A stretch of 64,000 bases of DNA, from the IMG/VR virus record IMGVR_UViG_3300045988_165521, one strand, 5' to 3'. A program made the position numbers and the translations under genes. This document shows, piece by piece, positions 29,688 to 42,387 of the stretch (position 1 is its first letter; every line of letters begins with the position of its first letter). Source of the DNA: a virus. Under the pieces are notes generated by a model that was not told the origin of the DNA, ran no database searches, and saw only the letters and a list, made by a program, of their open reading frames with translations.

Positions 29688-29751
29688 CCAAGTGGTTCAC
29701 GGCACCTGACTTACATTCAGGAGATCGGGAGTTCGACTCTCTCACTCTCTA
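29678..29751 (+). tRNA. tRNA-Val(TAC)
   Basis: Acceptor GGAGAGT/ACTCTCT (G1-U72). Anticodon arm is CCTGA-CTTACAT-TCAGG, T arm is GGGAG-TTCGACT-CTCTC. Confidence 0.85.
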
Positions 29752-29772
29752 CTAATAATTAATGTATATAAG

Positions 29773-30867
29773 ATGATAACATTAGATCATGTAAATAAAA
29801 ATTCTGGAAACTTTCTTCCAACACTTTGGTTAGTAGATAAATATAAACAATATCCAAATTGTGTATCAGTAATCTGTAACCTTGAACAAAAGAAGTTAAA
29901 TGAAAATAAGTTCTTAAAGAAGTTTAAAGAAAAGTTTACTAACTTTTGTATATGGGAAGATAATGTAATTGGAGTCAAACCTGAAGTTTCTGAAGAGGTA
30001 CTTGAAGAATTGGATCGTCCATTTTATGTAAGTCAACCTACTGCCTTACAATTTAGTGGAATTTGTGAAGAGTATAGATGCGCTTTGAATTATTATTCTT
30101 CTAGAATGTTAATTTATTTTTGTGATAAAGCTCTTATAGGTAACTTTATAGAGGATATTAAATCTTTATTTGAAGAATGTTCAGAAAAAGTAGTTTCTAC
30201 AACAAAAGTTAACTTAATTACTTTTGATGGTCAGGATTATGGTTTAACTGAATGTAAGATTAGAGATGTTAATGTTGACCTTGATAAACACTATAATGAT
30301 GATTTCAAACCTGTTTATAAAGATATTTCTGACTTCTTAAATAGTCCAAAATCTGGTTTAGTTATTCTTCATGGAACTCAAGGTACTGGTAAAACCTATA
30401 TGATTCGTCACTTAGTTAATAATTTTGATAAGCAATTTATTATTATTAATAACTCTATGATGAATAGCTTATCTGATCCTGTATTCTTAAACTTTATTCT
30501 TGATCATAAGAATTCAGTAATTATTCTTGAGGATTGTGAACAGCTTCTTAAAGATCGTTCTGAAAATGTATTTACAAATGGTATTAGTAATATTCTTAAT
30601 ATGACTGATGGTATTTATTCAGATATTTTAAATATTAAGTTTATTGCTACATTTAATAGTCCTGATACAAGTATTGATAAAGCATTGATGCGAAAGGGTC
30701 GACTTGCTGCAAAATACAAGTTTGATGAACTCTCTTTAGAGAAGACTAATAGAATACTTAAGGAATTAGGTAAACCTGAGGCAAGTAAAGGTATGACTCT
30801 TGCAGATATCTATAATCTTGATGTTCAGTCTTATGAACATAAGACTAGACGTAAAATTGGATTCTAA
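29773..30867 (+). CDS. AAA+ ATPase
   Basis: Walker A is HGTQGTGKT and Walker B is VIILEDCEQ. Confidence 0.85.
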   Translation: MITLDHVNKNSGNFLPTLWLVDKYKQYPNCVSVICNLEQKKLNENKFLKKFKEKFTNFCIWEDNVIGVKPEVSEEVLEELDRPFYVSQPTALQFSGICEEYRCALNYYSSRMLIYFCDKALIGNFIEDIKSLFEECSEKVVSTTKVNLITFDGQDYGLTECKIRDVNVDLDKHYNDDFKPVYKDISDFLNSPKSGLVILHGTQGTGKTYMIRHLVNNFDKQFIIINNSMMNSLSDPVFLNFILDHKNSVIILEDCEQLLKDRSENVFTNGISNILNMTDGIYSDILNIKFIATFNSPDTSIDKALMRKGRLAAKYKFDELSLEKTNRILKELGKPEASKGMTLADIYNLDVQSYEHKTRRKIGF

Positions 30868-31067
30868 TGATGTTTTGGATATTTATTTATTGGTTACTTT
30901 GTGCGTTTATTGTTATTGGAACAGATGATGGAGAACCATGGACTGTTGGAGATAAATGGTACATAGTATTTGCAGGATTTTATGTTCCTATAATAATTGG
31001 CCTATTTATAGGTAGTTACATTAAAGAAACTGGATTTTTTGATAAAAAACATCCATGGGAACATTAA
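30867..31067 (+). CDS. small membrane protein (66 aa)
   Basis: ORF-track ORF with a TAATG overlap with the upstream gene. Confidence 0.55.
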   Translation: MMFWIFIYWLLCAFIVIGTDDGEPWTVGDKWYIVFAGFYVPIIIGLFIGSYIKETGFFDKKHPWEH

Positions 31068-31074
31068 TCTATAT

Positions 31075-31149
31075 GTTGTCCGTAGCTTAGTTGATTAAAG
31101 CGCAAGTTTGTGGCACTTGAGATCGGGAGTTTGAATCTCCTCGGACACC
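31075..31149 (+). tRNA. tRNA-His(GTG) with encoded G-1
   Basis: G-1 (31075) lies opposite C73. Anticodon arm is CAAGT-TTGTGGC-ACTTG, T arm is GGGAG-TTTGAAT-CTCCT. Confidence 0.85.
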
Positions 31150-31328
31150 TAAAAGTATTCTTTAAACATACGAATCTGGACAAATGGTTAGACCTTATCT
31201 TATAAACCCCAAACTATAAGAATTAAGAAGTATTTCTCTCGAAATTAGGTAGATCCAGCTTCCTAGAGAGATAGAAGAATACTTACGATATAGTAGATTA
31301 GTTAAAATAATAATAACTTCTACTAAAT

Positions 31329-31402
31329 ACCTACATGGCGCAATTGGTTAGCGTACTTCTCTGATAAGGAAGCGGTTGAAGGTTCAAGTCCTTCTGTAGG
31401 TA
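31329..31402 (+). tRNA. tRNA-Ile(GAT), second copy
   Basis: Acceptor ACCTACA/TGTAGGT. Anticodon arm is CTTCT-CTGATAA-GGAAG, T arm is GAAGG-TTCAAGT-CCTTC. Confidence 0.9.
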
Positions 31403-31417
31403 CTAAAAGAGAAAATT

Positions 31418-31678
31418 ATGAAAGAATATAAGATTTGGAAATTTATACCAGGAAAATATTTACAAACAGTAACTGTTAGTCTTGAAGAGGAATATCCTTG
31501 TAAACAAAAAAGATGTGGATATTCTTGTTTAGGAGATAAAACAGAACATGTATGTTTTGTTAAAGCAAATCTCTCTTTTGAAGAACGTGAAAATTTAAAA
31601 TGTACAGCTTCAGGGAACAAAGAACATAAAAACTTTATACATATTAGACTTTTACATAGAATTTTTATAGATGAATAA
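31418..31678 (+). CDS. Cys-rich YRI-tail family protein (variant tail HRIFIDE)
   Basis: ORF-track ORF lying between tRNA-Ile and tRNA-Lys. Confidence 0.55.
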   Translation: MKEYKIWKFIPGKYLQTVTVSLEEEYPCKQKRCGYSCLGDKTEHVCFVKANLSFEERENLKCTASGNKEHKNFIHIRLLHRIFIDE

Positions 31679-31706
31679 TTATAAAGAGGAGTGTAATCCT
31701 TAGGCA

Positions 31707-31779
31707 GAGCTTATAATATAATCGGTTAGTATCCTACACTTTTAATGTAGTTGTCAGGGTTCGAGTCCCTGTAGGCTCA
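31707..31779 (+). tRNA. tRNA-Lys(TTT)
   Basis: Acceptor GAGCTTA/TAGGCTC. Anticodon arm is CTACA-CTTTTAA-TGTAG, T arm is CAGGG-TTCGAGT-CCCTG. Confidence 0.85.
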
Positions 31780-31804
31780 CACAATTTTTAAGTCAGAATT
31801 ACAA

Positions 31805-31999
31805 ATGATAAAACGTTTTGAAAATAAGTATATACAATCTATAAGAAGAGGTTATTTATGTCATATTACCCCTAATAAAAAATGTTATGGATTTGAATAT
31901 CATCATAATTCAAATGGATGTGAGATTTTTAATGAGAAATTTGGAGGATGTAGTAACAGACGTTATAATATGATTAAATATAGGATCTATGCAGATTAA
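31805..31999 (+). CDS. Cys-rich YRI-tail family protein
   Basis: Ends ...MIKYRIYAD. The ATG of the next member is embedded in its tail codons. Confidence 0.55.
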   Translation: MIKRFENKYIQSIRRGYLCHITPNKKCYGFEYHHNSNGCEIFNEKFGGCSNRRYNMIKYRIYAD

Positions 32000-32195
32000 A
32001 TATTTTCCTGAAATAAAGTGTTGTATACAAGCAGTTAGATCTCTAAAACAAAACCATTGTAGTAATAATCAATGCTATAAGTCAACCAATTATTGTATTT
32101 TGTTTTTACCTGCTTTCAATAAAAGTTGTCTTAAATATTATTTTTGGAGAGTTTCTTATCGTGTATTCTTAGAAGCTTCTTATGATAGAATATAA
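31989..32195 (+). CDS. YRI-tail family protein (tail SYRVFLE)
   Basis: ORF-track ORF that ends 8 nt before tRNA-Asn. Confidence 0.45.
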   Translation: MQIKYFPEIKCCIQAVRSLKQNHCSNNQCYKSTNYCILFLPAFNKSCLKYYFWRVSYRVFLEASYDRI

Positions 32196-32203
32196 AATAT
32201 AAT

Positions 32204-32276
32204 TGGAATGTGGCTGAGTGGTTGAAGCACCAAACTGTTAATTTGGGTTACGTGGGTTCGAGCCCCACCGTTCCAG
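32204..32276 (+). tRNA. tRNA-Asn(GTT)
   Basis: Acceptor TGGAATG/CGTTCCA. Anticodon arm is CCAAA-CTGTTAA-TTTGG, T arm is GTGGG-TTCGAGC-CCCAC. Confidence 0.9.
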
Positions 32277-32290
32277 CTAATATTAAACTT

Positions 32291-32551
32291 ATGCAACAGA
32301 TAAATACTTATGCAGAACTTAGAAAACTTAAACTAAATAAGTTATTCAAACATCCAACTTATAATATATATCAAGTTATTAAAAATAGAAATGCAGGATT
32401 TTGTCAGGGTGGATCTAGTAATATTAACCAGTGTGGTTTTATGTATCGTACTAGTTTTAATAAGCCATTTTGTTATAGAGCATGTGTACAAGGAAAACAA
32501 TATTTCTGGTATATAAAAATCAAATATAGAATTATACTAGATGATAAATAA
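32291..32551 (+). CDS. Cys-rich YRI-tail family protein
   Basis: Track ORF 32210 starts at a GTG inside tRNA-Asn; the ATG is at 32291. It ends ...WYIKIKYRIILDDK. Confidence 0.6.
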   Translation: MQQINTYAELRKLKLNKLFKHPTYNIYQVIKNRNAGFCQGGSSNINQCGFMYRTSFNKPFCYRACVQGKQYFWYIKIKYRIILDDK

Positions 32552-32588
32552 TTTGCTACAAATTTATTAACTTTTTGTGTTAAAATAC

Positions 32589-32679
32589 GGAGGATTGAGC
32601 CAAGTTGGACTAATGGCAGCACTCTTGAAAAGTGTAGGTCGCTTAAAACGGCGTGGGGGTTCGAGTCCCTCATCCTCCG
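32589..32679 (+). tRNA. tRNA-Ser(TGA), class II
   Basis: Acceptor GGAGGAT/ATCCTCC. Anticodon arm is GCACT-CTTGAAA-AGTGT, with a long variable arm. Confidence 0.9.
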
Positions 32680-32689
32680 CAATAAATAT

Positions 32690-32935
32690 ATGAAAACAGT
32701 AGAAGATCTTACAGAACTTAACAAAATCAAGTTAAATCAACTATTTAAATATATAAATAACTATATATTCCAGGCTATTCGAAGTAAAAAACATTTCTAT
32801 TGTTTTGATAATAAGAAGAATATTGGATGTAATTTATATAAGATTGGTCGTAGATGTAGCTTAGTTTGTATAAAATCTAAAGAAGAAAATTTCTGGTATA
32901 TAAGAATCATATATAGAATTAGACTAGATGAGTAG
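32690..32935 (+). CDS. Cys-rich YRI-tail family protein
   Basis: Ends ...WYIRIIYRIRLDE and shares KLNQLFK with 32291..32551. Confidence 0.6.
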   Translation: MKTVEDLTELNKIKLNQLFKYINNYIFQAIRSKKHFYCFDNKKNIGCNLYKIGRRCSLVCIKSKEENFWYIRIIYRIRLDE

Positions 32936-33161
32936 AGATATTGTATTAAAATATTGGAAAATAATTAGATATAAAACTTTAATTATTCAATGTGTACCTG
33001 AAGGAACACCTATAAAAAGATTTTGTTATGAATCTTCTGTTGGAAAGCCATGTGCTTTTACAGGAAAGGCTTGTAGTGATTTTAAATGTATAGATAGAGT
33101 AGATGGTCTTCGAGTTAGGTATATTAAAATAGATCATAGAGTTTATGTCAGCAAAACATAG
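32928..33161 (+). CDS. Cys-rich YRI-tail family protein (tail DHRVYV)
   Basis: Its start is embedded in the tail codons of the previous member. It shares RVRYIKID with the next member. Confidence 0.55.
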   Translation: MSRDIVLKYWKIIRYKTLIIQCVPEGTPIKRFCYESSVGKPCAFTGKACSDFKCIDRVDGLRVRYIKIDHRVYVSKT

Positions 33162-33405
33162 AGTTTCTCAAATAATTCTATTATTTGGTTATAGATATCG
33201 ATTACATCAGGTTATTCTAGGTATACAAGGAGAATCATCGTGTTATATGAGTGTTATTAAAGGTAAATCTTGTATATTTCGTGAGTATAATAGAATAAAT
33301 GGTAAGACATGTTGTGTCGATATTGCATGTACTCCTTTAGAACGAAAAGATGATATTAGAGTACGTTATATTAAATTAGACTATCGAATTTATTTGTTTA
33401 AATAA
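33145..33405 (+). CDS. Cys-rich YRI-tail family protein
   Basis: Ends ...RVRYIKLDYRIYLFK. Its stop is immediately followed by tRNA-Trp. Confidence 0.55.
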   Translation: MSAKHRVSQIILLFGYRYRLHQVILGIQGESSCYMSVIKGKSCIFREYNRINGKTCCVDIACTPLERKDDIRVRYIKLDYRIYLFK

Positions 33406-33477
33406 GCACTCTTGATGTAACTGGTAACATGACAGTCTCCAAAACTGTTCTTTGGGGTTCGAATCCTTAAGAGTGTG
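33406..33477 (+). tRNA. tRNA-Trp(CCA)
   Basis: Acceptor GCACTCT/AGAGTGC. Anticodon arm is ACAGT-CTCCAAA-ACTGT, T arm is TGGGG-TTCGAAT-CCTTA. Confidence 0.85.
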
Positions 33478-33491
33478 CTTATATATAATTA

Positions 33492-33563
33492 GGGCTGTTA
33501 GTATAGTGGCTATTACATCTGGTTTGCAACCAGAAAACAGGGTTTCGATTACCCTACGGTCCA
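33492..33563 (+). tRNA. tRNA-Ala(TGC)
   Basis: Acceptor GGGCTGT/ACGGTCC with the G3-U70 identity pair. Anticodon arm is TCTGG-TTTGCAA-CCAGA. Confidence 0.9.
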
Positions 33564-33705
33564 CAATCTTCTGTAGATTAGGATTCTATACAGAAAGAGT
33601 ACTGTAATCTGTTAAGAGCTTATAAATCAGACGTTAAAGAAAAAAGTTTTCGGGGCTGAAGAGCCCTGCTATGAATCTAATCCTAGTAGAAATACTAGGA
33701 TTTTT

Positions 33706-33778
33706 GGAACTGCGGTGTGCTAGGTGCGCTCGCTGGACTGAAAATCCAGAGGTAAATGTTCGACTCATTTCAGTTCCG
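33706..33778 (+). tRNA. tRNA-Phe(GAA)
   Basis: Acceptor GGAACTG/CAGTTCC. Anticodon arm is CTGGA-CTGAAAA-TCCAG, T arm is AAATG-TTCGACT-CATTT. D-stem pairing is imperfect. Confidence 0.8.
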
Positions 33779-33867
33779 CACTATCGTCTTCCTTATTAAG
33801 TTTGGTAACACGTGCACTGCCTGTAAATCTTAATAATAGATATGCTTAGTACTTGTTTTTATTAATG

Positions 33868-33939
33868 GATGTATTAGCTCAGTGGTAGAGCTCTGGCAAG
33901 GAGTGCCAGAAGTCATAGGTTCGAATCCTATATGCATCC
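33868..33939 (+). tRNA. tRNA-like gene with non-canonical anticodon loop AAGGAGT (no U33)
   Basis: The acceptor (GATGTAT/ATGCATC), D arm (GCTC-AGTGGTA-GAGC) and T arm (ATAGG-TTCGAAT-CCTAT) are regular. Anticodon stem CTGGC/GCCAG encloses AAGGAGT, which can also fold as a 7-bp stem with loop AGGAG. Confidence 0.5.
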
Positions 33940-34235
33940 CTTAAATCAAAAAATTATGATTATACCTCCAAATTTTTTAGTTAAAACTATTCCACTATAT
34001 AGTGAAGGAGATGTATCTACTCCACATGTAGTAATAAATTATCTTACAAGAAGTCTATTTTTATTCTTTTAAAATTTCCTCCGAATTGGAAATTGATAAA
34101 AGTTAAAGAAATAAAAGATAGAATTTTTATTAAAAATCTTGATTATAAGATGACTATGGGTCTTATGGAAGCAAAACGAATTGTAGATGAATTAACTATA
34201 GAATATGATATGAATAATATCTATAGAATACGATT

Positions 34236-34307
34236 GGTAGAATAGCCAAGTTGATAAGGCAGTGGTCTGCAACACCACGATCGCAGGTTTGAGTCCTGCT
34301 TCTACCT
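34236..34307 (+). tRNA. tRNA-Cys(GCA)
   Basis: Acceptor GGTAGAA/TTCTACC. Anticodon arm is GTGGT-CTGCAAC-ACCAC, T arm is GCAGG-TTTGAGT-CCTGC. Confidence 0.9.
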
Positions 34308-34310
34308 CTA

Positions 34311-34383
34311 AGCGAGTTGGAGAAGATGGTTACCTCGAGAGTTTCATAAGCTCTAGACCTCGGTTCAAATCCGAGACTCGCTA
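34311..34383 (+). tRNA. tRNA-Met(CAT), elongator-like
   Basis: Acceptor AGCGAGT/ACTCGCT. Anticodon arm is AGAGT-TTCATAA-GCTCT, T arm is CTCGG-TTCAAAT-CCGAG. Confidence 0.85.
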
Positions 34384-34400
34384 CACAAAATTTTAAAGTT

Positions 34401-34718
34401 ATGAGAAATATATTTAACGTACTTATATGGAATTTTAATACACAAACAATAGAAGAATATAATGTTATTCCATATTTTGTAAGAGAATGGAAAGAAGAAA
34501 AAGATAAATCTAAATTTAAGTCTTTTGATGATATTAAAGAATTTGTTAGAAGTAAATCTTTATATCAATTCTGGTCTCGATGTGAATATGAAATGATTGT
34601 TAAAGGATGGCCTGTAACTAAAAGAGAAATTAAATTAGATGTACATGAACAAATCATGATGAATCTTGATTTAGTTACACAAGTTTTTATAAATACTATT
34701 GGATGGAAAGTAAAGTAA
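34401..34718 (+). CDS. hypothetical protein (105 aa)
   Basis: ORF-track ORF. Confidence 0.55.
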   Translation: MRNIFNVLIWNFNTQTIEEYNVIPYFVREWKEEKDKSKFKSFDDIKEFVRSKSLYQFWSRCEYEMIVKGWPVTKREIKLDVHEQIMMNLDLVTQVFINTIGWKVK

Positions 34719-34867
34719 AGAATATTTTGTTACTTTTAGAACAAAATGGATGATCTGATCTTATCGATAGTCGATGGGAACAACAGGTTAGAGAGGAAAT
34801 ATTAACAGCTTATCCTGATATTGATATAGATACTTTAGATAAGGTATTAGAAATTGTATTAATTTAA
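34703..34867 (+). CDS. small ORF (54 aa) readable only with TGA=Trp
   Basis: Translation is MESKVKNILLLLEQNG[W]SDLIDSRWEQQVREEILTAYPDIDIDTLDKVLEIVLI. It fills an otherwise empty gap. Confidence 0.35.
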
Positions 34868-34879
34868 TTAGGATTACAA

Positions 34880-35155
34880 GTGAAAATAATTGTAAGTCCA
34901 GTTGACTATAATCACGATGAAACTGCAATTATATTTTACTGTAGAGCAAAAGATCGTGAGGATTATATGCGAGTATATGGTATTTTTGATACAGAACAAT
35001 TTGAAATTATTGAATCAAGAATTACTGATATAACTATTTTTAGAAAAATGGTTGAAAAACTTAACGATTTTGGATTTGAAAATGAAAAATATAAAGAAAA
35101 TAATCCTAATTTTGATATTAATATTGTTAAGCTCATGTGCAACAACAAAGTTTAA
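34880..35155 (+). CDS. hypothetical protein (91 aa), GTG start
   Basis: ORF-track ORF. Confidence 0.45.
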   Translation: MKIIVSPVDYNHDETAIIFYCRAKDREDYMRVYGIFDTEQFEIIESRITDITIFRKMVEKLNDFGFENEKYKENNPNFDINIVKLMCNNKV

Positions 35156-35221
35156 CTTAATGGTTGGTCCTACAGGTGAGGAACAGAAAACATATATAGA
35201 AAATATAAAACAGTATAAATA

Positions 35222-35470
35222 ATGATAATTATTATTTTCATTTTATTTTATTTACTTCCTATATTTTTAATTCATATCGTTGGATTATATTTTTGGAAGA
35301 AGCGCACTGATTGTGGGAAAACAATAGGAGATATGTATGAATATTATGATGCAGCTGATGGAAATCCTTTAGTAATTTTTACTTGGGTTCCTCTCGCTAA
35401 TATTTTTATATTATTAGCAGGACTTATTATATTTTTTATAAATTTAATGAGTAATATAAAAATTCGATAG
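35222..35470 (+). CDS. two-TM membrane protein, paralog of the next gene
   Basis: ORF-track ORF. It shares its layout and the I[GE].(M/I)(Y/F)EY(Y/W) motif with 35472..35735. Confidence 0.55.
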   Translation: MIIIIFILFYLLPIFLIHIVGLYFWKKRTDCGKTIGDMYEYYDAADGNPLVIFTWVPLANIFILLAGLIIFFINLMSNIKIR

Positions 35471-35471
35471 G

Positions 35472-35735
35472 ATGTATACTTTTTTTGTTATTATTTTATG
35501 TTATATTATTCCTGTATTTATTAATGCTTTTCTTTTTGTTTTTGCTTATAAAGTAAGTCATAAAGAAAAGATTGCTATTGGAAAAATATTTGAATATTGG
35601 AATGATAAGTTTAGGGATAGTGATGGTGATAGTAGTCTTTGTCTATTTCTTTTTATTCCTGGAATGAATATACTATTTATACTCTATACCTTTTTCTTAT
35701 CATTGTATAACATATTTAAAAATATAGAAGTCTAA
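35472..35735 (+). CDS. two-TM membrane protein, paralog of the previous gene
   Basis: ORF-track ORF. Confidence 0.55.
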   Translation: MYTFFVIILCYIIPVFINAFLFVFAYKVSHKEKIAIGKIFEYWNDKFRDSDGDSSLCLFLFIPGMNILFILYTFFLSLYNIFKNIEV

Positions 35736-36115
35736 TGTTTACTTTTATTACAGGTCTAATTGCAGTTTTGGTATGTGGAGCTCTTATAGGATATGAACGA
35801 CAATTTAAATCTAAAATAATTGGAATTAGAACCTGTATATTAATTATGTTAGGTTCTTTTGTTTTTACATATATCTCAATTAAAATAGGTGGAGATCCGT
35901 CTAGAGTTGCTGCACAAATTGCTTCTGGTGTTGGTTTTATTGGCGCAGGTATAATATTTAAGAATGGAATTGATGATATTCGGCATTTAACTACAGCTGT
36001 ATTAGTTTGGGTATTAGCGGCTTTAGGTAGTTTAATTTCTCTTGGATATTTATTTGAATCGTTAATGATAACTGGAATAATCTATATAATCCTTAAAATA
36101 AAAATACTAAAATGA
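35735..36115 (+). CDS. MgtC/SapB-family membrane protein
   Basis: CGALIGYERQFKSKIIGIRTCILIMLGS...IASGVGFIGAGIIFK matches the MgtC N-terminal domain pattern. Its TGA stop overlaps the next ATG. Confidence 0.7.
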   Translation: MFTFITGLIAVLVCGALIGYERQFKSKIIGIRTCILIMLGSFVFTYISIKIGGDPSRVAAQIASGVGFIGAGIIFKNGIDDIRHLTTAVLVWVLAALGSLISLGYLFESLMITGIIYIILKIKILK

Positions 36116-36369
36116 ACAAAATTGAAAAGCTGTACAGGTCTATGTATGAAAATGAATTACGTAAACTAAGAAAATGTGCAGAATCTGTTCAAAAACCTTC
36201 TCAATATGTTGTATTTAAAGCATGGAGTAAGGAAGTAATGGCTTACTTGTTTTTTAAAATAGATCGTTTAGATTATACTTGGGAATGGGAATATAAGGAT
36301 AAAATTGCAATGTTTATTCAGGATTGTCAAGAAATTGCTTTGCGAAAAGTAAAACTTAGTTCTAAATGA
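36112..36369 (+). CDS. hypothetical protein (85 aa)
   Basis: ORF-track ORF with a TGA stop in an ATGA overlap. It has a paralog immediately downstream. Confidence 0.55.
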   Translation: MNKIEKLYRSMYENELRKLRKCAESVQKPSQYVVFKAWSKEVMAYLFFKIDRLDYTWEWEYKDKIAMFIQDCQEIALRKVKLSSK

Positions 36370-36613
36370 CAGAAGAAAGAAAACTTTGGTTATCAATATG
36401 TAATAATGATTTAAAGAAATTAGAAGCTTGTGCTGAATCTATTCAAACTGAAATTCAAAGAAATGTGTTTTGAATTGGAGCGAAAAGGTAAAGTGGAATA
36501 TTATCTTTAAATTAGATAAAGCTACTCGTTGGGGGCATAGTCCTCATAGAAGAGAAATTTCTTATATTATTTCTGTATATCAACAAAGAGTTAGAGAAAT
36601 GATGCTAGAATAA
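36366..36613 (+). pseudogene. frameshifted paralog of 36112..36369 (break at a T4 run)
   Basis: The ATG frame gives MTEERKLWLSICNNDLKKLEACAESIQTEIQRNVF and then TGA. The -1 frame continues LNWSEKVKWNIIFKLDKATRWGHSPHRREISYIISVYQQRVREMMLE, which aligns with the paralog. One extra T at 36468-36471 would restore a single ORF. Confidence 0.5.
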
Positions 36614-36626
36614 ATATTAATGGTTT

Positions 36627-36698
36627 GCGTCGTTGGTGTTAGTGATAGCATATTAGACTTCCAATCTAAAGGGGAGAGTTTGAATCTCTTACGACGCT
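36627..36698 (+). tRNA. tRNA-Gly(TCC)
   Basis: Acceptor GCGTCGT/ACGACGC. Anticodon arm is TTAGA-CTTCCAA-TCTAA, T arm is GAGAG-TTTGAAT-CTCTT. Confidence 0.9.
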
Positions 36699-36720
36699 CT
36701 AAAGTGAATAATGAATATTG

Positions 36721-37449
36721 ATGAAAACTATTAAAGAACTTTCAGATAGACAAATTAAACTTGCGTGAATTAGTAGTAAAAGTTTATATGAAATTTGTAA
36801 AAAATTAGAAATTCACGATAATACTTATAATAGAAAATATTTAAGAGTTTGAGGAGTTAAGGAAGGACTAAAAATTCCTGTTTTTACACGATTTACTAAA
36901 ACAGATTATATAAAAAATCCTAAATTGTGTAAAAAATGTAAAAAACCTATTCCTTGAAATCAAAGAGAAAATAACTTCTGTTCTCACTCTTGTGCAACTA
37001 GTTATACAAATATAAAAAGAGGTGCTATAACTAGTGGTAAATATGTCAAAAATGCAACTAGTAAATGCTTAAATTGTGGAAAGGAAATTTTTGCAAGAAA
37101 TAAATATTGTAGTATTATTTGTCAAGTTGAATTTAAATATAAGGAGTATATTCAAAGGTGGAAAGACGGGAAAGAAACAGGAATGTCTGGTACAGATGGT
37201 CTTTCAAATCATATAAGAAAATATTTATTAGATAAGACTAATTATACTTGTGAAATTCCAGGGTGTGGATGCAATTTTATTAATCCTTATACTGGATTAT
37301 CTATTTTGCAAATTCATCATATAGATGGAGATGCAACTAATAATAAAGAGCAAAATCTTCAGGTTTTATGTCCTAATCATCATGCTATGACAGAACATTT
37401 TGGCTCCAGAAATAAAAATAGTACTAGAAAGTATCGTTATAAAAAGTAA
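36721..37449 (+). mobile_element. HNH homing-endonuclease-like gene, copy 1 (242 aa, three in-frame TGA)
   Basis: A 243-codon frame is broken only by TGA. It contains the HNH motif LQIHHIDGDATNNKEQNLQVLCPNHH, Cys4 zinc-ribbon pairs and an N-terminal HTH-like region. It starts 22 nt after tRNA-Gly. Confidence 0.8.
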
Positions 37450-37476
37450 TTACCCACTCTAATAAATTTTAAAAAC

Positions 37477-38346
37477 ATGAAATCCTTATCTAAAATTTTT
37501 AATGCAATATATTTGTGTATAAGATTTCCATTCTTATATCCAAGAAATAGATTTTCAGATAAACATACAGTTTATATAAGATGGATGTCTAATTTAGTAT
37601 ACAAATACTATAGTAAGTCTTATTATGATATCAGTTTAGCTTATAAGTTTTATAAAGATCCTCAAGAATGTACTACTATTACAAAGCAAGTAATCTTCAA
37701 GGATAAATACAATTTTAAAGCAAGGCTTATACGTAATAATACTATTTTAAGATTTTATAGTGATATATTGAAAGAACCTTATGATTTTAATATACAAAAG
37801 TATGTGGGTGATAATTTTAAGATTTCAGGAATTACTGTAAGTAAATCAACCTTCAATAATATACCTGTTTTATATTATCATATACATAAAAAGGAAGTTA
37901 CTAATACTAATTATGGATTTAGTTATAAGAAGTTAGAATTTGTAGCTGATACCAAAAGTGTCAAGATCTATACTATTCTAAACTATATTTACGAAAATAT
38001 AATTCCTAAAATTTGTTTTATTCCAACTTATACAGAACTTAATAGTATGCCAATTGGTTGGAGAAAAGCATTTGGCATTCAAATGTGTAAAGAAATAAAA
38101 CAAGCTCTTAAAAAGCATAATTATTTATATAATTATAGAATTATGCAGATTAAAGAGAAGTACGGTTCTCTTCGTTGGTATGATGCAGGAGCTCCAGAAG
38201 AAATACAGACTATAATTAATAAGTATGAAGATATTTCTTATCATACATGTATAAGTTGTGGAAAACCTGCTAAATATTTAAGTACAGGGTGGATATGTCC
38301 TTATTGTGAAAAATGTGCTCCAAGGGGCAGTAAGTTAATGAAATAA
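37477..38346 (+). CDS. hypothetical protein with a C-terminal zinc ribbon (289 aa)
   Basis: ORF-track ORF containing CISCGKPAKYLSTGWICPYCEKC. Confidence 0.65.
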   Translation: MKSLSKIFNAIYLCIRFPFLYPRNRFSDKHTVYIRWMSNLVYKYYSKSYYDISLAYKFYKDPQECTTITKQVIFKDKYNFKARLIRNNTILRFYSDILKEPYDFNIQKYVGDNFKISGITVSKSTFNNIPVLYYHIHKKEVTNTNYGFSYKKLEFVADTKSVKIYTILNYIYENIIPKICFIPTYTELNSMPIGWRKAFGIQMCKEIKQALKKHNYLYNYRIMQIKEKYGSLRWYDAGAPEEIQTIINKYEDISYHTCISCGKPAKYLSTGWICPYCEKCAPRGSKLMK

Positions 38347-38678
38347 TGACTTTTAAAGAATTTTGTAAAGAACTATTAGAGGAGTATGGATATATAATAT
38401 TTCAATATGATAGTGTTATTTCTTTTACTCAAACTTTTCCTGATACAACTTGTGGATTAGGTGGAATAGGAGGACAAGCATTTACTGATGCTCAAATATT
38501 TATATTTGTTGATCAAAGTAATAGAAATGCTATTGTAATTGGTCCTGCATGGAGTTATTACATAGAAGGTATTACTGAAAAATTTTCAGTAGATTGTTGT
38601 AACCATCATATGGCTGGAATTAATAATATTGCAAGAATTAAAAAATATGGTGACATTAAAGAAATTAAAAGAGCTTAA
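38346..38678 (+). CDS. hypothetical protein (110 aa)
   Basis: ORF-track ORF with a TAATG overlap. Confidence 0.55.
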   Translation: MTFKEFCKELLEEYGYIIFQYDSVISFTQTFPDTTCGLGGIGGQAFTDAQIFIFVDQSNRNAIVIGPAWSYYIEGITEKFSVDCCNHHMAGINNIARIKKYGDIKEIKRA

Positions 38679-39051
38679 GCAGATTAAGCGAGATAATAAG
38701 GTAATTTATAATTTGTTAAATACTATCATTGGAGAGTGTGAACAGATTAGTAAAGATCCTTCTTGTAGTCAGGTTATGGATGTTATACAGAAAATGTATA
38801 AAGATAATAAACAGACTATTAGTGAATGTTCGGTGGATAGAGTTGATCAACTTAATACCCTAAACGAAGAAAATGCTTTCCTTGAGAGTTATTTACCTCA
38901 ACCTCTTACTAAGGAGGAATTAACTGCACTTATTGGTTCACAATTAACTGCAGGTAACAATATGTCAAAAATTATGAAATATCTTTCAGAAGAATATAAA
39001 GGAAGATATGATGGCAAAGTTGCAGTAGAAATTATTAAATCCTTACAATAA
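38629..39051 (+). CDS. GatB/YqeY-domain-like protein
   Basis: YLPQPLTKEELTALIGSQLTAGNNMSKIMKYLSEEYKGRYDGKVAVEIIKSL follows the YqeY C-terminal pattern. An alternative start is at 38647. Confidence 0.6.
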   Translation: MQELKNMVTLKKLKELKQIKRDNKVIYNLLNTIIGECEQISKDPSCSQVMDVIQKMYKDNKQTISECSVDRVDQLNTLNEENAFLESYLPQPLTKEELTALIGSQLTAGNNMSKIMKYLSEEYKGRYDGKVAVEIIKSLQ

Positions 39052-39413
39052 TGTTAATTGTATTTATTATAATATTCATAGCTTTATATGAACTAATAAC
39101 AGTTATGTATTATGAAAGTCTTAAGATAAGACTTGTCAAAGTAGGCGCTTTTATAGATCATCTTAATACTTTTGGTTCTACAGAAGATAAACAAATTTTC
39201 TATAAGTTTTTAAAAGAAGTTAATACAGAATCTATTAGATGCAATGCTAAACTTGATATAACTATAGAAAATGCAAGTAAACCTGAACTTTGGTACAGAT
39301 ATCCTTCAAATCCTAATACCTTTAAAGAGTGTTTCAAACTTTTTAATTTATGTTTTTATCGAAATGTAGTTAAAGATTCAGTTGATAAAATAATTAACTG
39401 GTTTAAGAAATAA
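39051..39413 (+). CDS. membrane-anchored hypothetical protein (120 aa)
   Basis: ORF-track ORF. Confidence 0.55.
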   Translation: MLIVFIIIFIALYELITVMYYESLKIRLVKVGAFIDHLNTFGSTEDKQIFYKFLKEVNTESIRCNAKLDITIENASKPELWYRYPSNPNTFKECFKLFNLCFYRNVVKDSVDKIINWFKK

Positions 39414-39417
39414 AAAT

Positions 39418-39636
39418 ATGAAATTTTTACTTTGTCTAATTTGTTTAATTACAGTTAGTTGTAATGCTGTAATTGATCCTAAGTCAGAAACTATAAGATC
39501 TGAAGATGGATACTATATTGGTACTGCACATAAATTTAAGTTTGAAGGACATGATTATATTAGTTTTACTAAAGGTCATGGTGTAGCAGTTGTTCATAAT
39601 CCTAAATGTCATTGTAATCTAAATGAAGACTATTAA
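39418..39636 (+). CDS. putative lipoprotein, paralog of 15454..15696
   Basis: Signal peptide with LITVSC and a shared C-terminal Cys/His pattern. Confidence 0.6.
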   Translation: MKFLLCLICLITVSCNAVIDPKSETIRSEDGYYIGTAHKFKFEGHDYISFTKGHGVAVVHNPKCHCNLNEDY

Positions 39637-39811
39637 AACATATTGCCCAGAATGTGACAAAGAAACAGTTCATATAATTTGGACGGAGGATGCATATGGA
39701 GCTTCTGGTGTAGCTAGAATCTTTTCAACTTTACTTTCTGTTGGAATGTCAAACTTAGCTTGTACTACATACAGTAAGTGTATTAGTTGTGGAAATACTA
39801 AAGAATTATAA
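39623..39811 (+). CDS. zinc-ribbon small protein (62 aa)
   Basis: Contains CPECDK...CISCGN. Confidence 0.5.
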   Translation: MKTIKTYCPECDKETVHIIWTEDAYGASGVARIFSTLLSVGMSNLACTTYSKCISCGNTKEL

Positions 39812-39812
39812 A

Positions 39813-40076
39813 ATGATTAATGACCAAATTAAAAAGTTAGCTAATAAAAAGATTCCATTATATAATAACTCTTCTAGTTTATATGATATTTTGGATTGGC
39901 TGCGGGAGAAAAAATTCCTACATGTAGAGATACAATGGTATCCTCATGGTTGGATGTTTGTTATTTATAAAATTGATTCTCAAGAGGATGAACCATATGA
40001 TACTTTCTCTGAAGTATATACTAGTTATCTAAATTGTTTAGAAGCTGGAATTATAAGAGCATTAAATATTATATAA
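39813..40076 (+). CDS. hypothetical protein, paralog pair member 1
   Basis: The track start 39789 is GTG; the ATG is at 39813. LYDILDWLREKKFLHVEIQWYPHGW parallels the next gene. Confidence 0.55.
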   Translation: MINDQIKKLANKKIPLYNNSSSLYDILDWLREKKFLHVEIQWYPHGWMFVIYKIDSQEDEPYDTFSEVYTSYLNCLEAGIIRALNII

Positions 40077-40078
40077 TT

Positions 40079-40294
40079 ATGAAAAATACAGGTTTACATG
40101 ATATTCTGGATGAACTAAGAGATAAAGAGTCTTTACATGTAGAAATCGGATGGCATCCTAATGGATATGCATACTCTATTTATAGAATTAATAGGCGAGA
40201 TACAGAGCCGTGTTATGCTTCTTCTGAAAGATACCATAATTATCGGGAATGCTTAGGAGCGGCAATTGTAAAAGCAATGAACTTGGCGGATTAA
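40079..40294 (+). CDS. hypothetical protein, paralog pair member 2
   Basis: ATG at 40079. Contains LHDILDELRDKESLHVEIGWHPNGY. Confidence 0.55.
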   Translation: MKNTGLHDILDELRDKESLHVEIGWHPNGYAYSIYRINRRDTEPCYASSERYHNYRECLGAAIVKAMNLAD

Positions 40295-40299
40295 TAAAA

Positions 40300-40719
40300 A
40301 TGAAAACATTACTTTGGGTGGACGATGCTCGTAATCCTCTTGAGAATGATTGGTTAAATTTTAGTCCTATCGGTCGAAACTGTTTTGTAATATGGGCGCA
40401 AACTTATCAAGAAGCAATACAATTTCTTGAAAAAGACTGGCCTGATGCAATTTGTCTTGATCACGATTTAGGAGAAGAAGAAAGCGGTTATGATATAGCT
40501 AAATATATTGTAAATCGTTGTATTGATGAGGGAAAGAAACTTCCATTATTTGCAAGTCAATCTGCAAATCCTGTAGGTAGAGAGAATATCTTAAGATTGT
40601 TTAAAAATTATCAAAAACAGGAATTATTAGAACATGTTCAAGAAGCAGTTCAATATAAACATGATTGGTTAAATGCTGTTGAAAATGGTACAGAAATTCC
40701 CAAAAAGAGACGAATGTAG
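40300..40719 (+). CDS. receiver (REC)-like fold protein
   Basis: MKTLLWVDDARNP...ICLDHDLGEEESGYDIAKYIV has the acidic-pocket spacing of receiver-type domains. The ATG is at 40300. Confidence 0.5.
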   Translation: MKTLLWVDDARNPLENDWLNFSPIGRNCFVIWAQTYQEAIQFLEKDWPDAICLDHDLGEEESGYDIAKYIVNRCIDEGKKLPLFASQSANPVGRENILRLFKNYQKQELLEHVQEAVQYKHDWLNAVENGTEIPKKRRM

Positions 40720-41032
40720 AATTCTTTATCATATAACCTTAAAAGAAAATTTAGATAGTATTTTAGATAAAGGACTTATTCCAGATATTGGTTCTCAGTG
40801 TACTCATTGTAAAAATGATAATCCAACTGAGAAGTTAGTTTATATGACTGATTTAGAAGGAATTGCTAAATGGAAGAAAGCGTTATATGGTAATAGTAAT
40901 TCTTGTGTAATTCTTGAAGTTAATACTCTTAATCTTGAAATAATCTATCGCAGAAAGTTTGTTGAAGGAACTGAATATGCATGTAAAGAAACTATTTTAC
41001 CTGACAGATTAAAGATTATAACTCTTAAATGA
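40673..41032 (+). CDS. hypothetical protein (119 aa)
   Basis: ORF-track ORF. Its TGA stop is in an ATGA overlap with the next gene. Confidence 0.5.
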   Translation: MLLKMVQKFPKRDECRILYHITLKENLDSILDKGLIPDIGSQCTHCKNDNPTEKLVYMTDLEGIAKWKKALYGNSNSCVILEVNTLNLEIIYRRKFVEGTEYACKETILPDRLKIITLK

Positions 41033-41217
41033 AAAATTTTATTCAACATGTTGTTTATAGTCATAGAGAGGGATTACGTTGGTACTTTAAATCAACAGAG
41101 CGTAAAGGTACATTTGTAATTTCTTTATATCCTTGGGATATTAGACTTTTAAAATATGGACTTTATTTACTAATTCCACCTCTTAAAGAGACTCATATTA
41201 AAGGCAACTGGAATTAA
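41029..41217 (+). CDS. hypothetical protein (62 aa)
   Basis: ORF-track ORF. Confidence 0.45.
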   Translation: MKNFIQHVVYSHREGLRWYFKSTERKGTFVISLYPWDIRLLKYGLYLLIPPLKETHIKGNWN

Positions 41218-41226
41218 AAAAGGTAT

Positions 41227-41309
41227 GCCCACGCAGCAGAGTTGGAGATCTGCACGAAACTGTAAATTTCGCGTCTCAGACTAATGAGGTTCGAATCCTC
41301 ACGGGGGCA
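41227..41309 (+). tRNA. tRNA-Tyr(GTA), class II
   Basis: Acceptor GCCCACG/CGGGGGC. Anticodon arm is CGAAA-CTGTAAA-TTTCG, with a 13-nt variable arm and T arm TGAGG-TTCGAAT-CCTCA. Confidence 0.9.
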
Positions 41310-41332
41310 CAAAATAATAAAAATTGCAAATA

Positions 41333-42386: not shown

Positions 42387-42387
42387 A

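What the first reader, a model, noticed from the sequence alone, without database searches (positions are those of the whole stretch)
35735..36613. The same genome appears to use TGA both as a stop and as Trp
Several genes in the central block end at TGA in contexts typical of real stops. There are ATGA start/stop overlaps at 36112-36115, 36366-36369, 41029-41032 and 23762-23765; the last TGA is followed directly by TAA. The TGA at 5668-5670 lies in the loop of a terminator hairpin. For the paralog pair 36112..36369 and 36366..36613, stopping at TGA gives matching C-terminal lengths, whereas read-through would add 15 residues. In the same block, other ORFs need TGA=Trp: the HNH genes at 36721, 45406 and 52877 and the small ORFs at 27382, 34703 and 53449. 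This fits the published model in which recoded phages keep early genes in the host code and switch once a suppressor tRNA is made. Here the two codon meanings are interleaved at the scale of single genes. Read-through would also give C-terminal extensions to the TGA-terminated genes.
Basis: inference. Interest (0 to 1): 0.72.

Follow-up and report, generated by a model that had tools for sequence, protein, structure and literature searches.

The report
Gut phage using TGA two ways
This piece of an uncultivated human-gut phage genome reads TGA as tryptophan in its lysis, replication and homing-endonuclease genes, but TGA still ends a few genes in a large tRNA-rich block; this is a clear example of the already published "code-switching phage" pattern, not a new kind of system.

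Summary
TGA means Trp in the tail-lysozyme gene (11 TGA, 3 TGG) and in the replication module at 55.2-63.6 kb. There, RNase H TGAs align with conserved Trp, and TGA and TGG swap often among relatives.

The tRNA/auxiliary block at about 4.4-55.2 kb differs. Its counted part (10.4-55.2 kb) has 79 ORFs with 124 TGG and no internal TGA. Five of these ORFs end at TGA, all within ATGA.

At the flagged locus:
- MgtC orthologs (63-69% identical) end with TAA, one of them at exactly the residue of the window's TGA.
- The 17-codon read-through tail is not conserved (5/17). The overlapping P1 frame is conserved (13/18).
- A diverged P1 ortholog ends with TAG one codon later.

Three HNH genes inside the block need TGA=Trp. 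They are mobile: absent in some relatives, and one is 95% identical across clades whose flanks are about 75% identical.

Corrections:
- P2 (36366-36613) is frameshifted in this window.
- No tRNA(UCA) was found in the window or in about 97 kb of the roughly 170-kb genome.
- Support for the small ORFs is weak.

This is the published mixed-code phage pattern (Borges et al.; Mgcod). Expression timing is untested.

The parts
35735..36115 (+). MgtC-family membrane protein gene (126 aa). It ends at TGA 36113-36115 inside ATGA, and read-through would add 18 residues.
   Evidence: Pfam PF02308, E = 1.6e-30, covering residues 8-123. Orthologs P0009 (69% identical...KLKILK-TAA), P0053 (126 aa, TAA) and L014 (131 aa, TAA) all stop at or near the same residue. 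The extension is 5/17 conserved against L005, while the overlapping P1 frame is 13/18 conserved.
36112..36369 (+). P1, an 85-aa protein of unknown function. It ends at TGA 36367-36369 inside ATGA, and read-through would add 15 residues.
   Evidence: The diverged ortholog in L005 (62% identical) is 86 aa and ends with TAG. No Pfam hit.
36366..36613 (+). P2, a paralog of P1 that is disrupted here by a 1-nt deletion (T4 instead of T5 at 36468-36471). Frame 0 runs to TGA 36471, and the remainder is in the -1 frame ending at TAA 36611-36613.
   Evidence: Intact 82-aa copy in L009 and L013. L011 has an independent A-run deletion. The repaired P2 is 42% identical to P1 over 52 aa spanning the shift, E = 4e-12.
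36627..36698 (+). tRNA-Gly(UCC), lying between P2 and the first HNH gene.
   Evidence: Rfam tRNA, 51.5 bits. ARAGORN in relaxed mode also finds it. Cloverleaf fold.
36721..37449 (+). HNH homing-endonuclease-like gene 1, with in-frame TGA at 36766, 36850 and 36955.
   Evidence: Weak matches (below the curated cut-offs) to HNH_3 and a treble-clef zinc-ribbon family, DUF2116, plus a PLATZ match just at its cut-off. The gene is absent from relatives L003, L008, L009 and L013. All TGAs are conserved where the gene is present.
45406..46017 (+). HNH gene 2, with TGA at 45415 and 45829. The second TGA lies at the edge of the nuclease motif. The 3' end overlaps tRNA-Arg(UCU) 45995-46082.
   Evidence: Segment 45299-46056 is missing in L009 and L013. 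Codon 142 aligns with TAT, TGA or TGG in paralogs and orthologs.
52381..53446 (+). Mobile element made of about 490 nt of non-coding leader plus HNH gene 3 (52877-53446; TGA at 53027 and 53120).
   Evidence: HNH_4 scores above the Pfam cut-off. The gene is absent in 8 close relatives. The element is 94-96% identical in the sister clade, whose flanks are only about 75-77% identical. Codon-position variability is 14/10/38.
15700..15999 (+). 99-aa gene ending at TGA 15997 (in an ATGA context); read-through would add 8 residues (Trp plus 7 codons).
   Evidence: The stop is TAA in relative L064. Distant orthologs end with TAA at about 93 aa.
23400..23765 (+). 121-aa membrane-protein gene ending in the tandem TGA-TAA. 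Its ATGA overlaps the start of the radical-SAM-like gene 23762-24676.
   Evidence: The tandem stop is conserved in all relatives.
40673..41032 (+). 119-aa gene ending at TGA inside ATGA. It lies within a 411-bp cassette (40618-41028) that most relatives lack.
   Evidence: Besides the window, the cassette is intact in L010 and frameshifted in L002 (its gene also aligns in L005). The other relatives join 40617 directly to 41029.
5470..5670 (+). Small ORF whose TGA (5668-5670) lies in the loop of the terminator-like hairpin 5659-5683. A same-frame ORF (5696-5865) follows.
   Evidence: Sequence. Conserved in L067 and L078. No family hit.
34703..34867 (+). 54-codon ORF with an in-frame TGA at 34751. 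It is a possible Trp-reading small gene inside the block.
   Evidence: It fills the gap between neighbouring genes. Codon 25 is TGG here and TGA in 4 relatives. Variability by codon position is 3/2/6. Support is weak.
33406..33478 (+). Phage tRNA-Trp with anticodon CCA, the only Trp tRNA found. It is not an opal suppressor by anticodon.
4400..55200 (+). Block compatible with the standard code. It holds 27 tRNA genes (20 amino acids), a tmRNA, and genes resembling ClpP, ParB, RNA ligase, AAA ATPases, NUDIX, tRNA methyltransferase, CCA-adding enzyme, GMP reductase and CobS/CobT.
55262..63600 (+). Replication module written with TGA=Trp. It includes RNase H, a phosphoesterase, a DEAD-like helicase and a DnaB-like helicase.
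   Evidence: Two of the three RNase H TGAs align with Trp in the best-matching solved structure (3h08), one of them in all three alignments shown; the third aligns with Trp only in the third match (2e4l). Many TGA/TGG swaps occur in two clades.
1008..3257 (-). Tail-associated glucosaminidase/lysozyme gene with 11 TGA and 3 TGG.
   Evidence: Pfam Glucosaminidase, plus Phage_lysozyme2 just below its cut-off. One TGA falls in the ESAWG motif.

Best explanation
The window is part of an uncultivated human-gut phage of about 165-175 kb, probably infecting a standard-code Bacteroidota host. The phage belongs to the known class of TGA-to-Trp recoded, mixed-code phages.

A block of about 50 kb holds the tRNA array, the tmRNA and auxiliary or host-takeover genes. 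It is written so that it can be translated by an unmodified host: Trp is always TGG there. A few ancestral TGA terminators survive in the block, and all five are in ATGA contexts. In four of them the G is also the G of the next gene's ATG, so a change to TAA would destroy that start codon.

Lysis, structural and replication genes use TGA freely as Trp. They can therefore be translated in full only when opal decoding is active in the infected cell.

The single-gene interleaving inside the block comes mainly from free-standing HNH homing-endonuclease cassettes. These move between related recoded phages and carry TGA-Trp codons, which would also hold back their translation until the late state.

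Once opal decoding is on, the TGA-terminated block genes would gain short, unselected tails of 0-28 codons.

Shown: the two codon meanings, the true stop positions, and the mobility of the cassettes. Inferred: the timing, the host's genetic code, and the ATGA 'lock'. Unknown: what decodes TGA.
For: TGA = Trp:
- Two of the three RNase H TGAs align with Trp in the best-matching solved structure, one of them in all three alignments shown.
- One lysozyme TGA falls in the ESAWG glucosaminidase motif.
- TGA and TGG swap at many orthologous codons in two clades.

Block contrast:
- TGA/TGG is 0/124 in the block against 49/19 in read-through genes, p = 2e-30.
- Changes of TGG to TGA in relatives are about 20-fold rarer in the block: 10 TGA against 2349 TGG aligned codons, versus 38 against 390; p = 4e-23.

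TGA = stop:
- MgtC orthologs end with TAA at the same residue.
- The P1 ortholog in L005 ends with TAG.
- TGA and TAA swap at 15997. Two further block stops are TAA here and TGA in relatives.
- The MgtC tail is not conserved (5/17), while the overlapping frame is (13/18).
- Tail lengths equal the off-frame expectation.

Mobility:
- HNH1, HNH2 and HNH3 show presence/absence among relatives, and HNH3 is 95% identical across clades against about 76% for its flanks.

Not an assembly chimera:
- Several contigs of 140-174 kb from different samples carry both block types in the same order.

Published model:
- bioRxiv 10.1101/2021.08.26.457843, 10.1101/2022.06.29.495998 and PMC9523058.
Against: - No tRNA(UCA), release factor or TrpRS was found. 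Only about 97 of the roughly 170 kb could be examined, so the switch mechanism is unverified.
- Replication genes are recoded, so 'early versus late' does not map simply onto 'standard versus recoded'.
- A few relatives carry TGA at Trp positions of block genes (5 of the 124 TGG sites), so the boundary leaks.
- The ATGA enrichment is weak statistically. Including the 5668 stop it is 5/6 against 21/49, Fisher p = 0.09; for the five block stops it is 5/5, p = 0.014.
- There are no expression data. The host is inferred only from helicase similarity to phages of Bacteroidota.
Confidence: 0.75

Rival explanations
1. There is no temporal switch. TGA is decoded as Trp at a constant, partial efficiency throughout infection, for example by the phage tRNA-Trp(CCA) competing with RF2. 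Every TGA would then give a mixture of termination and read-through. Block genes avoid TGA simply because they need high yield.
For: - No tRNA(UCA) was found in about 97 kb of the genome or in any close relative.
- The phage encodes its own tRNA-Trp(CCA).
- Some replication genes carry few or no TGAs and some block genes in relatives carry one, suggesting a gradient and not a sharp boundary.
Against: - Genes with 7-11 TGAs would give almost no full-length product under partial read-through.
- About 78 kb of the genome is still unscanned.
- Distant cousins do carry tRNA(UCA) or tRNA(CUA).
Confidence: 0.15
2. The host itself uses code 4, so TGA is always Trp. The apparent TGA stops would be illusions, with the true stops at the next TAA or TAG.
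For: Every TGA-terminated ORF can be extended to a nearby TAA or TAG. One gene-caller output in the public database contains the 144-aa extended MgtC (P0001).
Against: - 0 of 124 Trp codons in the block are TGA, against 72% elsewhere.
- MgtC orthologs stop with TAA at the same residue.
- The extension is not conserved.
- TGA and TAA swap at gene ends.
- The only Trp tRNA has anticodon CCA.
- Similar proteins are found in phages of Bacteroidota, which use the standard code (the host code is established knowledge).
Confidence: 0.04
3. The pattern is an artefact: either a chimeric assembly of a standard-code and a recoded phage, or the TGA-containing genes are pseudogenes.
For: None beyond the block structure itself.
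Against: - Several contigs of 140-174 kb, assembled from different samples, carry both kinds of block in the same order.
- TGA positions are conserved or swap with TGG across two clades, and they align with Trp in solved structures.
Confidence: 0.01

Closest known systems
TGA-recoded gut phages under the code-switch model (Borges et al., bioRxiv 10.1101/2021.08.26.457843; clades Jade, Agate and others)
   Same: - A large, low-GC gut phage with many tRNAs.
- In-frame TGA=Trp in lysis and structural genes, variable in replication genes.
- A set of genes compatible with the standard code.
- TGA is rare as a stop: 5 of 79 here, against 4 of 146 in their standard-code Agate relative.
   Different: - No tRNA(UCA), RF1 or TrpRS 'code-change module' was found near the lysis cassette or in the tRNA array.
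- Clade membership was not tested, because no terminase lies in the window.
- This report documents residual TGA terminators with ortholog evidence, and recoded HNH cassettes inside the compatible block. I did not find either described in the passages I read.
Multi-code phage genomes with a 'dual-coded' early block (Mgcod; Pfennig, Lomsadze and Borodovsky, bioRxiv 10.1101/2022.06.29.495998)
   Same: One block gives nearly identical proteins under code 11 and code 4. The other blocks need code 4.
   Different: - The block is not perfectly dual-coded. Five (perhaps six) genes differ by tails of 0-28 codons.
- Three HNH genes inside the block need code 4, so the blocks are interrupted at single-gene scale.
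Free-standing HNH homing endonuclease genes of large lytic phages (T4-like)
   Same: - Small intergenic ORFs with an HNH motif, often next to tRNA genes.
- Presence/absence among close relatives.
- Recent transfer between diverged genomes.
   Different: - Cleavage and homing were not tested.
- Pfam scores are mostly below the curated cut-offs.
- Delay of expression through stop-codon recoding is an inference.
Opal decoding by tRNA-Trp(CCA) variants (the Hirsh suppressor, G24A in E. coli tRNA-Trp)
   Same: The phage tRNA-Trp keeps anticodon CCA and has a U11:A24 pair in the D stem. This was read from the sequence; the link to Hirsh suppression rests on my own knowledge.
   Different: U11:A24 is common in ordinary tRNAs. 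There is no functional evidence, so this is only a lead.

Membership tests
TGA-to-Trp recoded, mixed-code phage (Borges et al.; Mgcod) | In-frame TGA in conserved genes at positions occupied by Trp in homologs | tested here: met
   Two of the three RNase H TGAs align with Trp in the best-matching solved structure, one of them in all three alignments shown. TGA and TGG swap in the helicases, DnaB, RNase H and other genes across two clades.
TGA-to-Trp recoded, mixed-code phage (Borges et al.; Mgcod) | A contiguous set of genes translatable under the standard code (no in-frame TGA) | tested here: met
   79 ORFs, 11,048 codons, 124 TGG and 0 internal TGA. The contrast with recoded genes gives p = 2e-30.
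TGA-to-Trp recoded, mixed-code phage (Borges et al.; Mgcod) | Recoded codons concentrated in structural and lysis genes | tested here: met
   The tail lysozyme has 11 TGA. Genes I read as a lysis cassette (by eye, not checked against a family library), just upstream of the window in relative L100, carry 1-3 TGA each.
TGA-to-Trp recoded, mixed-code phage (Borges et al.; Mgcod) | Phage-encoded opal suppressor tRNA(UCA) or other code-change machinery (frequent in the class, not universal) | tested here: inconclusive
   None was found in the window, in the loci covering window-equivalent -16.8 to +80.7 kb, or by an anticodon-arm pattern scan. About 78 kb remains unscanned. Distant cousins do have tRNA(UCA) or tRNA(CUA).
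TGA-to-Trp recoded, mixed-code phage (Borges et al.; Mgcod) | The host uses the standard code, and the code changes during infection | not testable with these tools
   Indirect only. Helicase relatives occur in phages of Flavobacterium, Bacteroides and Cellulophaga and in human faecal phage contigs. No expression data exist.
Phage of a native code-4 host (uniform TGA=Trp) | TGA used as the main Trp codon throughout the genome and never as a stop | tested here: not met
   0 of 124 Trp codons in the block are TGA. MgtC orthologs end with TAA at the same residue. TGA and TAA swap at gene ends.
Free-standing HNH homing endonuclease gene | HNH nuclease motif | tested here: inconclusive
   HNH3 passes the Pfam HNH_4 cut-off (23.7 against 22). 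HNH1 and HNH2 match HNH_3 at 18.8 bits, below the cut-off of 24.8.
Free-standing HNH homing endonuclease gene | Presence/absence polymorphism and horizontal spread among related genomes | tested here: met
   HNH1 is absent in 4 of 13 contigs (L003, L008, L009, L013) and HNH2 in 2 of 13. HNH3 is absent in 8 relatives, yet 95% identical in a clade whose flanks are about 76% identical.
Programmed ribosomal frameshift (considered for P2) | A conserved slippery site that gives the needed -1 shift, with the shift conserved among relatives | tested here: not met
   The site GTG TTT TGA is not an X XXY YYZ heptamer. Relatives L009 and L013 have an unshifted gene, and L011 is broken at a different place. 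A decaying paralog is the simpler reading.
Selenocysteine insertion at TGA | tRNA-Sec and SECIS-type elements, with TGA aligning with Cys or Sec | tested here: not met
   No tRNA-Sec was found in the window. TGAs align with Trp or TGG.

The most novel reading that the evidence does not exclude
This clade decodes TGA without any dedicated tRNA(UCA). Instead, its own abundant tRNA-Trp(CCA), which has a Hirsh-like U11:A24 D stem, would read TGA, perhaps helped by interference with RF2. The surviving ATGA junctions would act as switches: before the code change they couple termination to re-initiation of the next gene, and after it read-through runs over the downstream start and turns those block genes down.
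Probability: 0.08. Interest if true: 0.65.

Novelty: new member of a known kind. Interest (0 to 1): 0.3.

Why it matters
The result gives ortholog-level proof, within one phage lineage, that the same codon is kept as a real terminator in some genes and as Trp in neighbouring genes. This is assumed by the code-switch model but is usually only inferred from gene-calling statistics.

There are practical consequences. Neither code 11 nor code 4 annotates this genome correctly. Public databases already hold both the 126-aa and the 144-aa MgtC.

Two smaller points may be useful to specialists:
- The residual TGA stops sit in ATGA contexts, four of them overlapping the next gene's start, where they cannot mutate to TAA without destroying that start.
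- Homing-endonuclease cassettes carry recoded codons into the code-neutral block.

The lack of a detectable suppressor tRNA in a clade whose distant cousins have one points to an open question: what actually reads TGA here?

Tried and rejected
- A nucleotide search of 20 kb of the window against GenBank phages found nothing. A protein search found only relatives about 40% identical, from human faecal samples.
- The suppressor tRNA search failed at every step. I ran ARAGORN in default, relaxed and intron modes, and Rfam at the gathering and E <= 1 thresholds, on the window. I ran ARAGORN on 222 related loci and Rfam on two walked loci. I walked about 17 kb upstream and 17 kb downstream of the window. 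A collection scan with a Trp-like UCA anticodon arm hit none of this clade's contigs.
- The intron-containing 'tRNA-Ala' at 52425-52863 (ARAGORN -i) was rejected as a poor model. Rfam finds no group I intron there.
- Context test for stop-type against sense-type TGAs. Base +4 shows no difference. Base -1 is A in 5/6 stops against 21/49 sense codons, p = 0.09. A wider survey of terminal TGAs in relatives gave 20/38 against 106/330. This is suggestive only.
- Programmed frameshifting in P2 was rejected.
- A Bacteroidetes-type promoter motif occurs no more often than chance: 5 matches against 3.2 expected.
- No P1 homologs were found next to diverged MgtC genes, so P1 has only one independent ortholog, in L005.
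- PHROGs and Pfam gave no function for P1, for the gene at 40673, or for the ORFs at 5470/5696.
Full report
WHAT THE WINDOW IS

The 64-kb window has low GC (about 30%) and almost all of its genes lie on the + strand. It carries 27 tRNA genes covering all 20 amino acids, plus a tmRNA.

Very close relatives (91-100% identical proteins) occur on many IMG/VR viral contigs, the longest 164-174 kb, from many samples including HMP gut samples. GenBank phages give no nucleotide match. The best protein matches are two unannotated 'Bacteriophage sp.' contigs from human faeces at about 40% identity, followed by phages of Flavobacterium, Bacteroides and Cellulophaga. I conclude that this is an uncultivated gut phage of roughly 170 kb, probably with a Bacteroidota host. 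The host assignment is an inference.

CHECKING THE OBSERVATION

- The ATGA overlaps are at 36112, 36366, 41029 and 23762, and the last is followed by TAA.
- The TGA at 5668 sits in the loop of a perfect 10-bp hairpin, AAGAAAGGGC-TTTGA-GCCCTTTCTT.

A table of ORFs read with only TAA and TAG as stops shows three zones:
- A minus-strand tail glucosaminidase/lysozyme gene (1008-3257) has 11 TGA and 3 TGG.
- A block from about 4.4 to 55.2 kb has + strand ORFs that avoid in-frame TGA, apart from the exceptions below.
- A replication module at 55.2-63.6 kb contains RNase H, a phosphoesterase, a DEAD-like helicase and a DnaB-like helicase, with many in-frame TGAs.

The numbers are as follows.
- In the block's counted part (10.4-55.2 kb), 79 non-overlapping ORFs (11,048 codons) have 124 TGG and 0 internal TGA. 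TGA occurs 149 and 573 times in the other two frames.
- Genes that need read-through have 49 TGA and 19 TGG. Fisher p = 2e-30.
- Stops in the block are 57 TAA, 17 TAG and 5 TGA.

IS TGA REALLY TRP?

I replaced the three RNase H TGAs with X and compared the protein with solved structures.
- One X aligns with the Trp of the (I/V/R)DLW motif in all three best RNase H chains.
- A second aligns with Trp in the best chain.
- The third aligns with Trp in the RNase HI of entry 2e4l.

Two clades of relatives were available, about 97% and about 58% identical in the helicase. Across them, window TGAs align with TGA or TGG, and window TGGs with TGG or TGA, at many codons of RNase H, both helicases and other genes. 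A selenocysteine reading, a pseudogene reading and an assembly-chimera reading are all excluded by this evidence. They are also excluded because single long contigs carry all three zones in the same order.

IS TGA REALLY A STOP IN THE BLOCK?

MgtC (35735-36115)
- The Pfam MgtC domain fills the protein up to residue 123 of 126.
- A database search found a large family of phage MgtC proteins, mostly 126 aa long.
- I fetched the DNA of two diverged members. P0009 (69% identical) ends ...KLKILK followed by TAA. That is the residue where the window has ...KIKILK followed by TGA, and its junction with the next gene is TAATG instead of ATGA. P0053 (63% identical, 126 aa) also ends with TAA.
- A third homolog, in L014, ends with TAA at 131 aa.
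- The 17-codon read-through tail is not conserved. Against relative L005 it is 5/17 identical, while the same nucleotides read in the overlapping P1 frame are 13/18 identical.

P1 (36112-36369)
- The one diverged ortholog (L005, 62% identical) is 86 aa and ends with TAG. No overlapping gene follows it there.

Other gene ends
- Gene 15700-15999 has TAA in place of TGA in relative L064. Its distant orthologs end with TAA at about 93 aa.
- Two other block genes that end with TAA here end with TGA in some relatives.
- The read-through tails of the five TGA-terminated genes are 0, 7, 14, 17 and 28 codons (mean 13.2). Off-frame TAA/TAG density predicts 11-15 codons. The tails therefore look like unselected sequence.

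CORRECTIONS AT THE FLAGGED LOCUS

P2 (36366-36613) is not an intact ORF in this window.
- Frame 0 runs for 35 codons to an in-frame TGA at 36471, and a TAA follows 5 codons later. The rest of the paralog is in the -1 frame.
- Relatives L009 and L013 have one more T (T5 instead of T4) and an intact 82-aa gene. L011 has T5 but lost an A in a nearby A run.
- With the shift repaired, P2 is 42% identical to P1 over 52 ungapped residues that span the break, E = 4e-12.

P2 is therefore a true paralog that is decaying in most lineages, and nothing supports programmed frameshifting.

Between P2 and the first HNH gene lies a tRNA-Gly(UCC) that the default ARAGORN run missed.

WHY THE TWO MEANINGS ARE INTERLEAVED

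The three HNH genes need read-through to produce their nuclease domains. They are also mobile.
- HNH1 is missing from 4 of 13 relatives (L003, L008, L009, L013) and HNH2 from 2 of 13.
- HNH3 is missing from 8 relatives. Yet HNH3 and its 490-nt leader (52381-53439) are 94-96% identical in the sister clade, whose flanking genes are only about 75-77% identical.

The whole block is a mosaic of small cassettes around the tRNA genes. The TGA-terminated gene 40673-41032 lies in a 411-bp cassette that, besides the window, is intact in L010 and frameshifted in L002; most other relatives lack it.

No terminator-like site was found on the + strand between 34.4 and 41.9 kb. TGA-as-stop genes (MgtC, P1) and a TGA-as-Trp gene (HNH1) are therefore probably co-transcribed, though this is an inference.

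The small ORFs are less secure. ORFs 27382 and 53449 show no third-position bias among relatives, so their TGA/TGG swaps may be neutral changes. ORF 34703 is weakly supported.

A PATTERN IN THE SURVIVING TGA STOPS

All five TGA stops of the block are preceded by A, giving ATGA, and four of them overlap the ATG of a real downstream gene. Changing TGA to TAA at such a site would destroy that start codon. Where the overlap is absent, orthologs use TAA or TAG: the MgtC orthologs use TAATG, and P1 in L005 uses TAG.

I propose that these stops are leftovers of the ancestral purge of TGA stops described by Borges et al., held in place by the overlap. The statistics are modest:
- 5/5 against a 43% base rate, p = 0.014.
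- Including the 5668 stop, 5/6 against 21/49, p = 0.09.
- In a noisier survey of relatives, 20/38 against 106/330.

WHAT DECODES TGA?

I could not find it.
- No tRNA(UCA) is present in the window, in any related locus of this clade or its sister clades, or in walks that bring the examined span to window-equivalent -16.8 to +80.7 kb. That is about 97 kb of the roughly 170 kb.
- Distant cousins (33-38% identical in a marker protein) do carry a Trp-like tRNA(UCA) or a tRNA(CUA), near the position where this clade has what I read, by eye, as its lysis genes.
- A collection scan with that anticodon arm, also allowing the arm of the window's tRNA-Trp changed to UCA, hit none of this clade's contigs.
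- The only Trp tRNA has anticodon CCA.
- About 78 kb remains unscanned, so absence is not shown.

The block is not absolutely closed to TGA. At 5 of its 124 TGG sites some relative has TGA. This is about 20 times rarer than in the replication module (p = 4e-23) but not zero.

COMPARISON WITH WHAT IS KNOWN

Stop-codon-recoded gut phages, and the idea that standard-code-compatible genes are expressed before a code change, are published. Borges et al. report a standard-code relative with 4 of 146 TGA stops. Mgcod describes blocks, one of them 'dual-coded'. Peters et al. state that such phages use both codes.

This window is a member of that kind. Beyond the published picture it adds:
- direct ortholog evidence that a few TGAs are still true terminators;
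- the ATGA context of those terminators;
- recoded, mobile HNH cassettes inside the compatible block;
- a clade with no obvious suppressor tRNA.

These are refinements and not a new kind of system.

VERDICT

Novelty: a new member of a known kind. Interest is about 0.3.

Noticed in passing
window 36366-36613: P2, the paralog of P1, is broken by a 1-nt homopolymer deletion (T4 instead of T5 at 36468-36471) in the window and 8 relatives. It is intact in L009 and L013, and L011 is broken independently in a nearby A run. The gene appears to be decaying.
   Followed up: yes
window 13418-13488: A tRNA-like gene (Rfam 48.8 bits) has a 6-nt anticodon loop (GTTGTG, Thr-UGU-like with one base missing) and two mismatched stem pairs. 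Its sequence is identical in at least 14 relatives apart from a D-loop indel. A different tRNA with a 6-nt loop (Lys-like) occurs in the distant relative L082 at 15420-15489.
   Followed up: partly
window 52381-53446; L046, L047, L049, L050, L052: HNH3 and its 490-nt non-coding leader are 94-96% identical in a sister clade whose neighbouring genes are about 75-77% identical, which indicates recent transfer between clades. Part of the leader (52462-52813) also occurs elsewhere in that clade at 82% identity (L069, L071, L076, L083). What the leader does is unknown, and it has no Rfam hit.
   Followed up: partly
window 40618-41028: A 411-bp (137-codon) cassette adds 34 residues to the receiver-domain-like gene 40249-40719 and brings in the gene 40673-41032. 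Besides the window it is intact in L010 and frameshifted in L002. Most other relatives join 40617 directly to 41029.
   Followed up: yes
window 33406-33478: The phage tRNA-Trp has anticodon CCA and a U11:A24 pair in the D stem. This is the pair created by the classical Hirsh UGA-suppressor mutation, although it is also common in ordinary tRNAs.
   Followed up: no
L163 and L164 4662-4735; L160 1997-2073, L161 4057-4133, L162 4010-4086: Distant cousins of this phage carry a Trp-like opal suppressor tRNA(UCA) or an amber suppressor tRNA(CUA), 5-8 kb upstream of a shared 178-aa gene. The corresponding region in this clade, where I read the lysis genes, has no tRNA.
   Followed up: partly
window 55535-55537 (codon 92 of gene 55262-55840): The codon is TGA in the window and one relative, CGA (Arg) in 13 close relatives, and AGA in most sister-clade loci. 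It is either a recent Arg-to-Trp change or a nonsense mutation. The same gene also has an ATGA overlap at 55828-55831 although it needs TGA=Trp upstream, which shows that ATGA alone does not prove a stop.
   Followed up: partly
window 4000-8000: This stretch has a GC content of 39-42%, against about 30% elsewhere. It contains short + strand ORFs of unknown function separated by strong terminator-like hairpins (5360-5389, 5659-5683, 6466-6493). ORFs 5470-5670 and 5696-5865 are in the same frame, and the hairpin loop TGA is the only stop between them.
   Followed up: partly
window 45347-45378, 52369-52400, 4416-4447 (-): Matches to the Bacteroidetes promoter consensus (TTTG...TAnnTTTG) lie directly upstream of HNH2, at the start of the HNH3 element, and upstream of the replication-initiator gene. 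The total count in the window is not above chance (5 matches against 3.2 expected).
   Followed up: partly
window 19593, 40351, 40438, 40666, 54121: At these five Trp codons of block genes, which are TGG in the window, one to four relatives have TGA. The standard-code compatibility of the block is therefore not absolute across the clade.
   Followed up: partly
window 21965-22343: A phage-encoded tmRNA (Rfam 100 bits) with an unusually long predicted tag peptide, ANNIFSRIINKVETALFGDIEGVALIAA.
   Followed up: no
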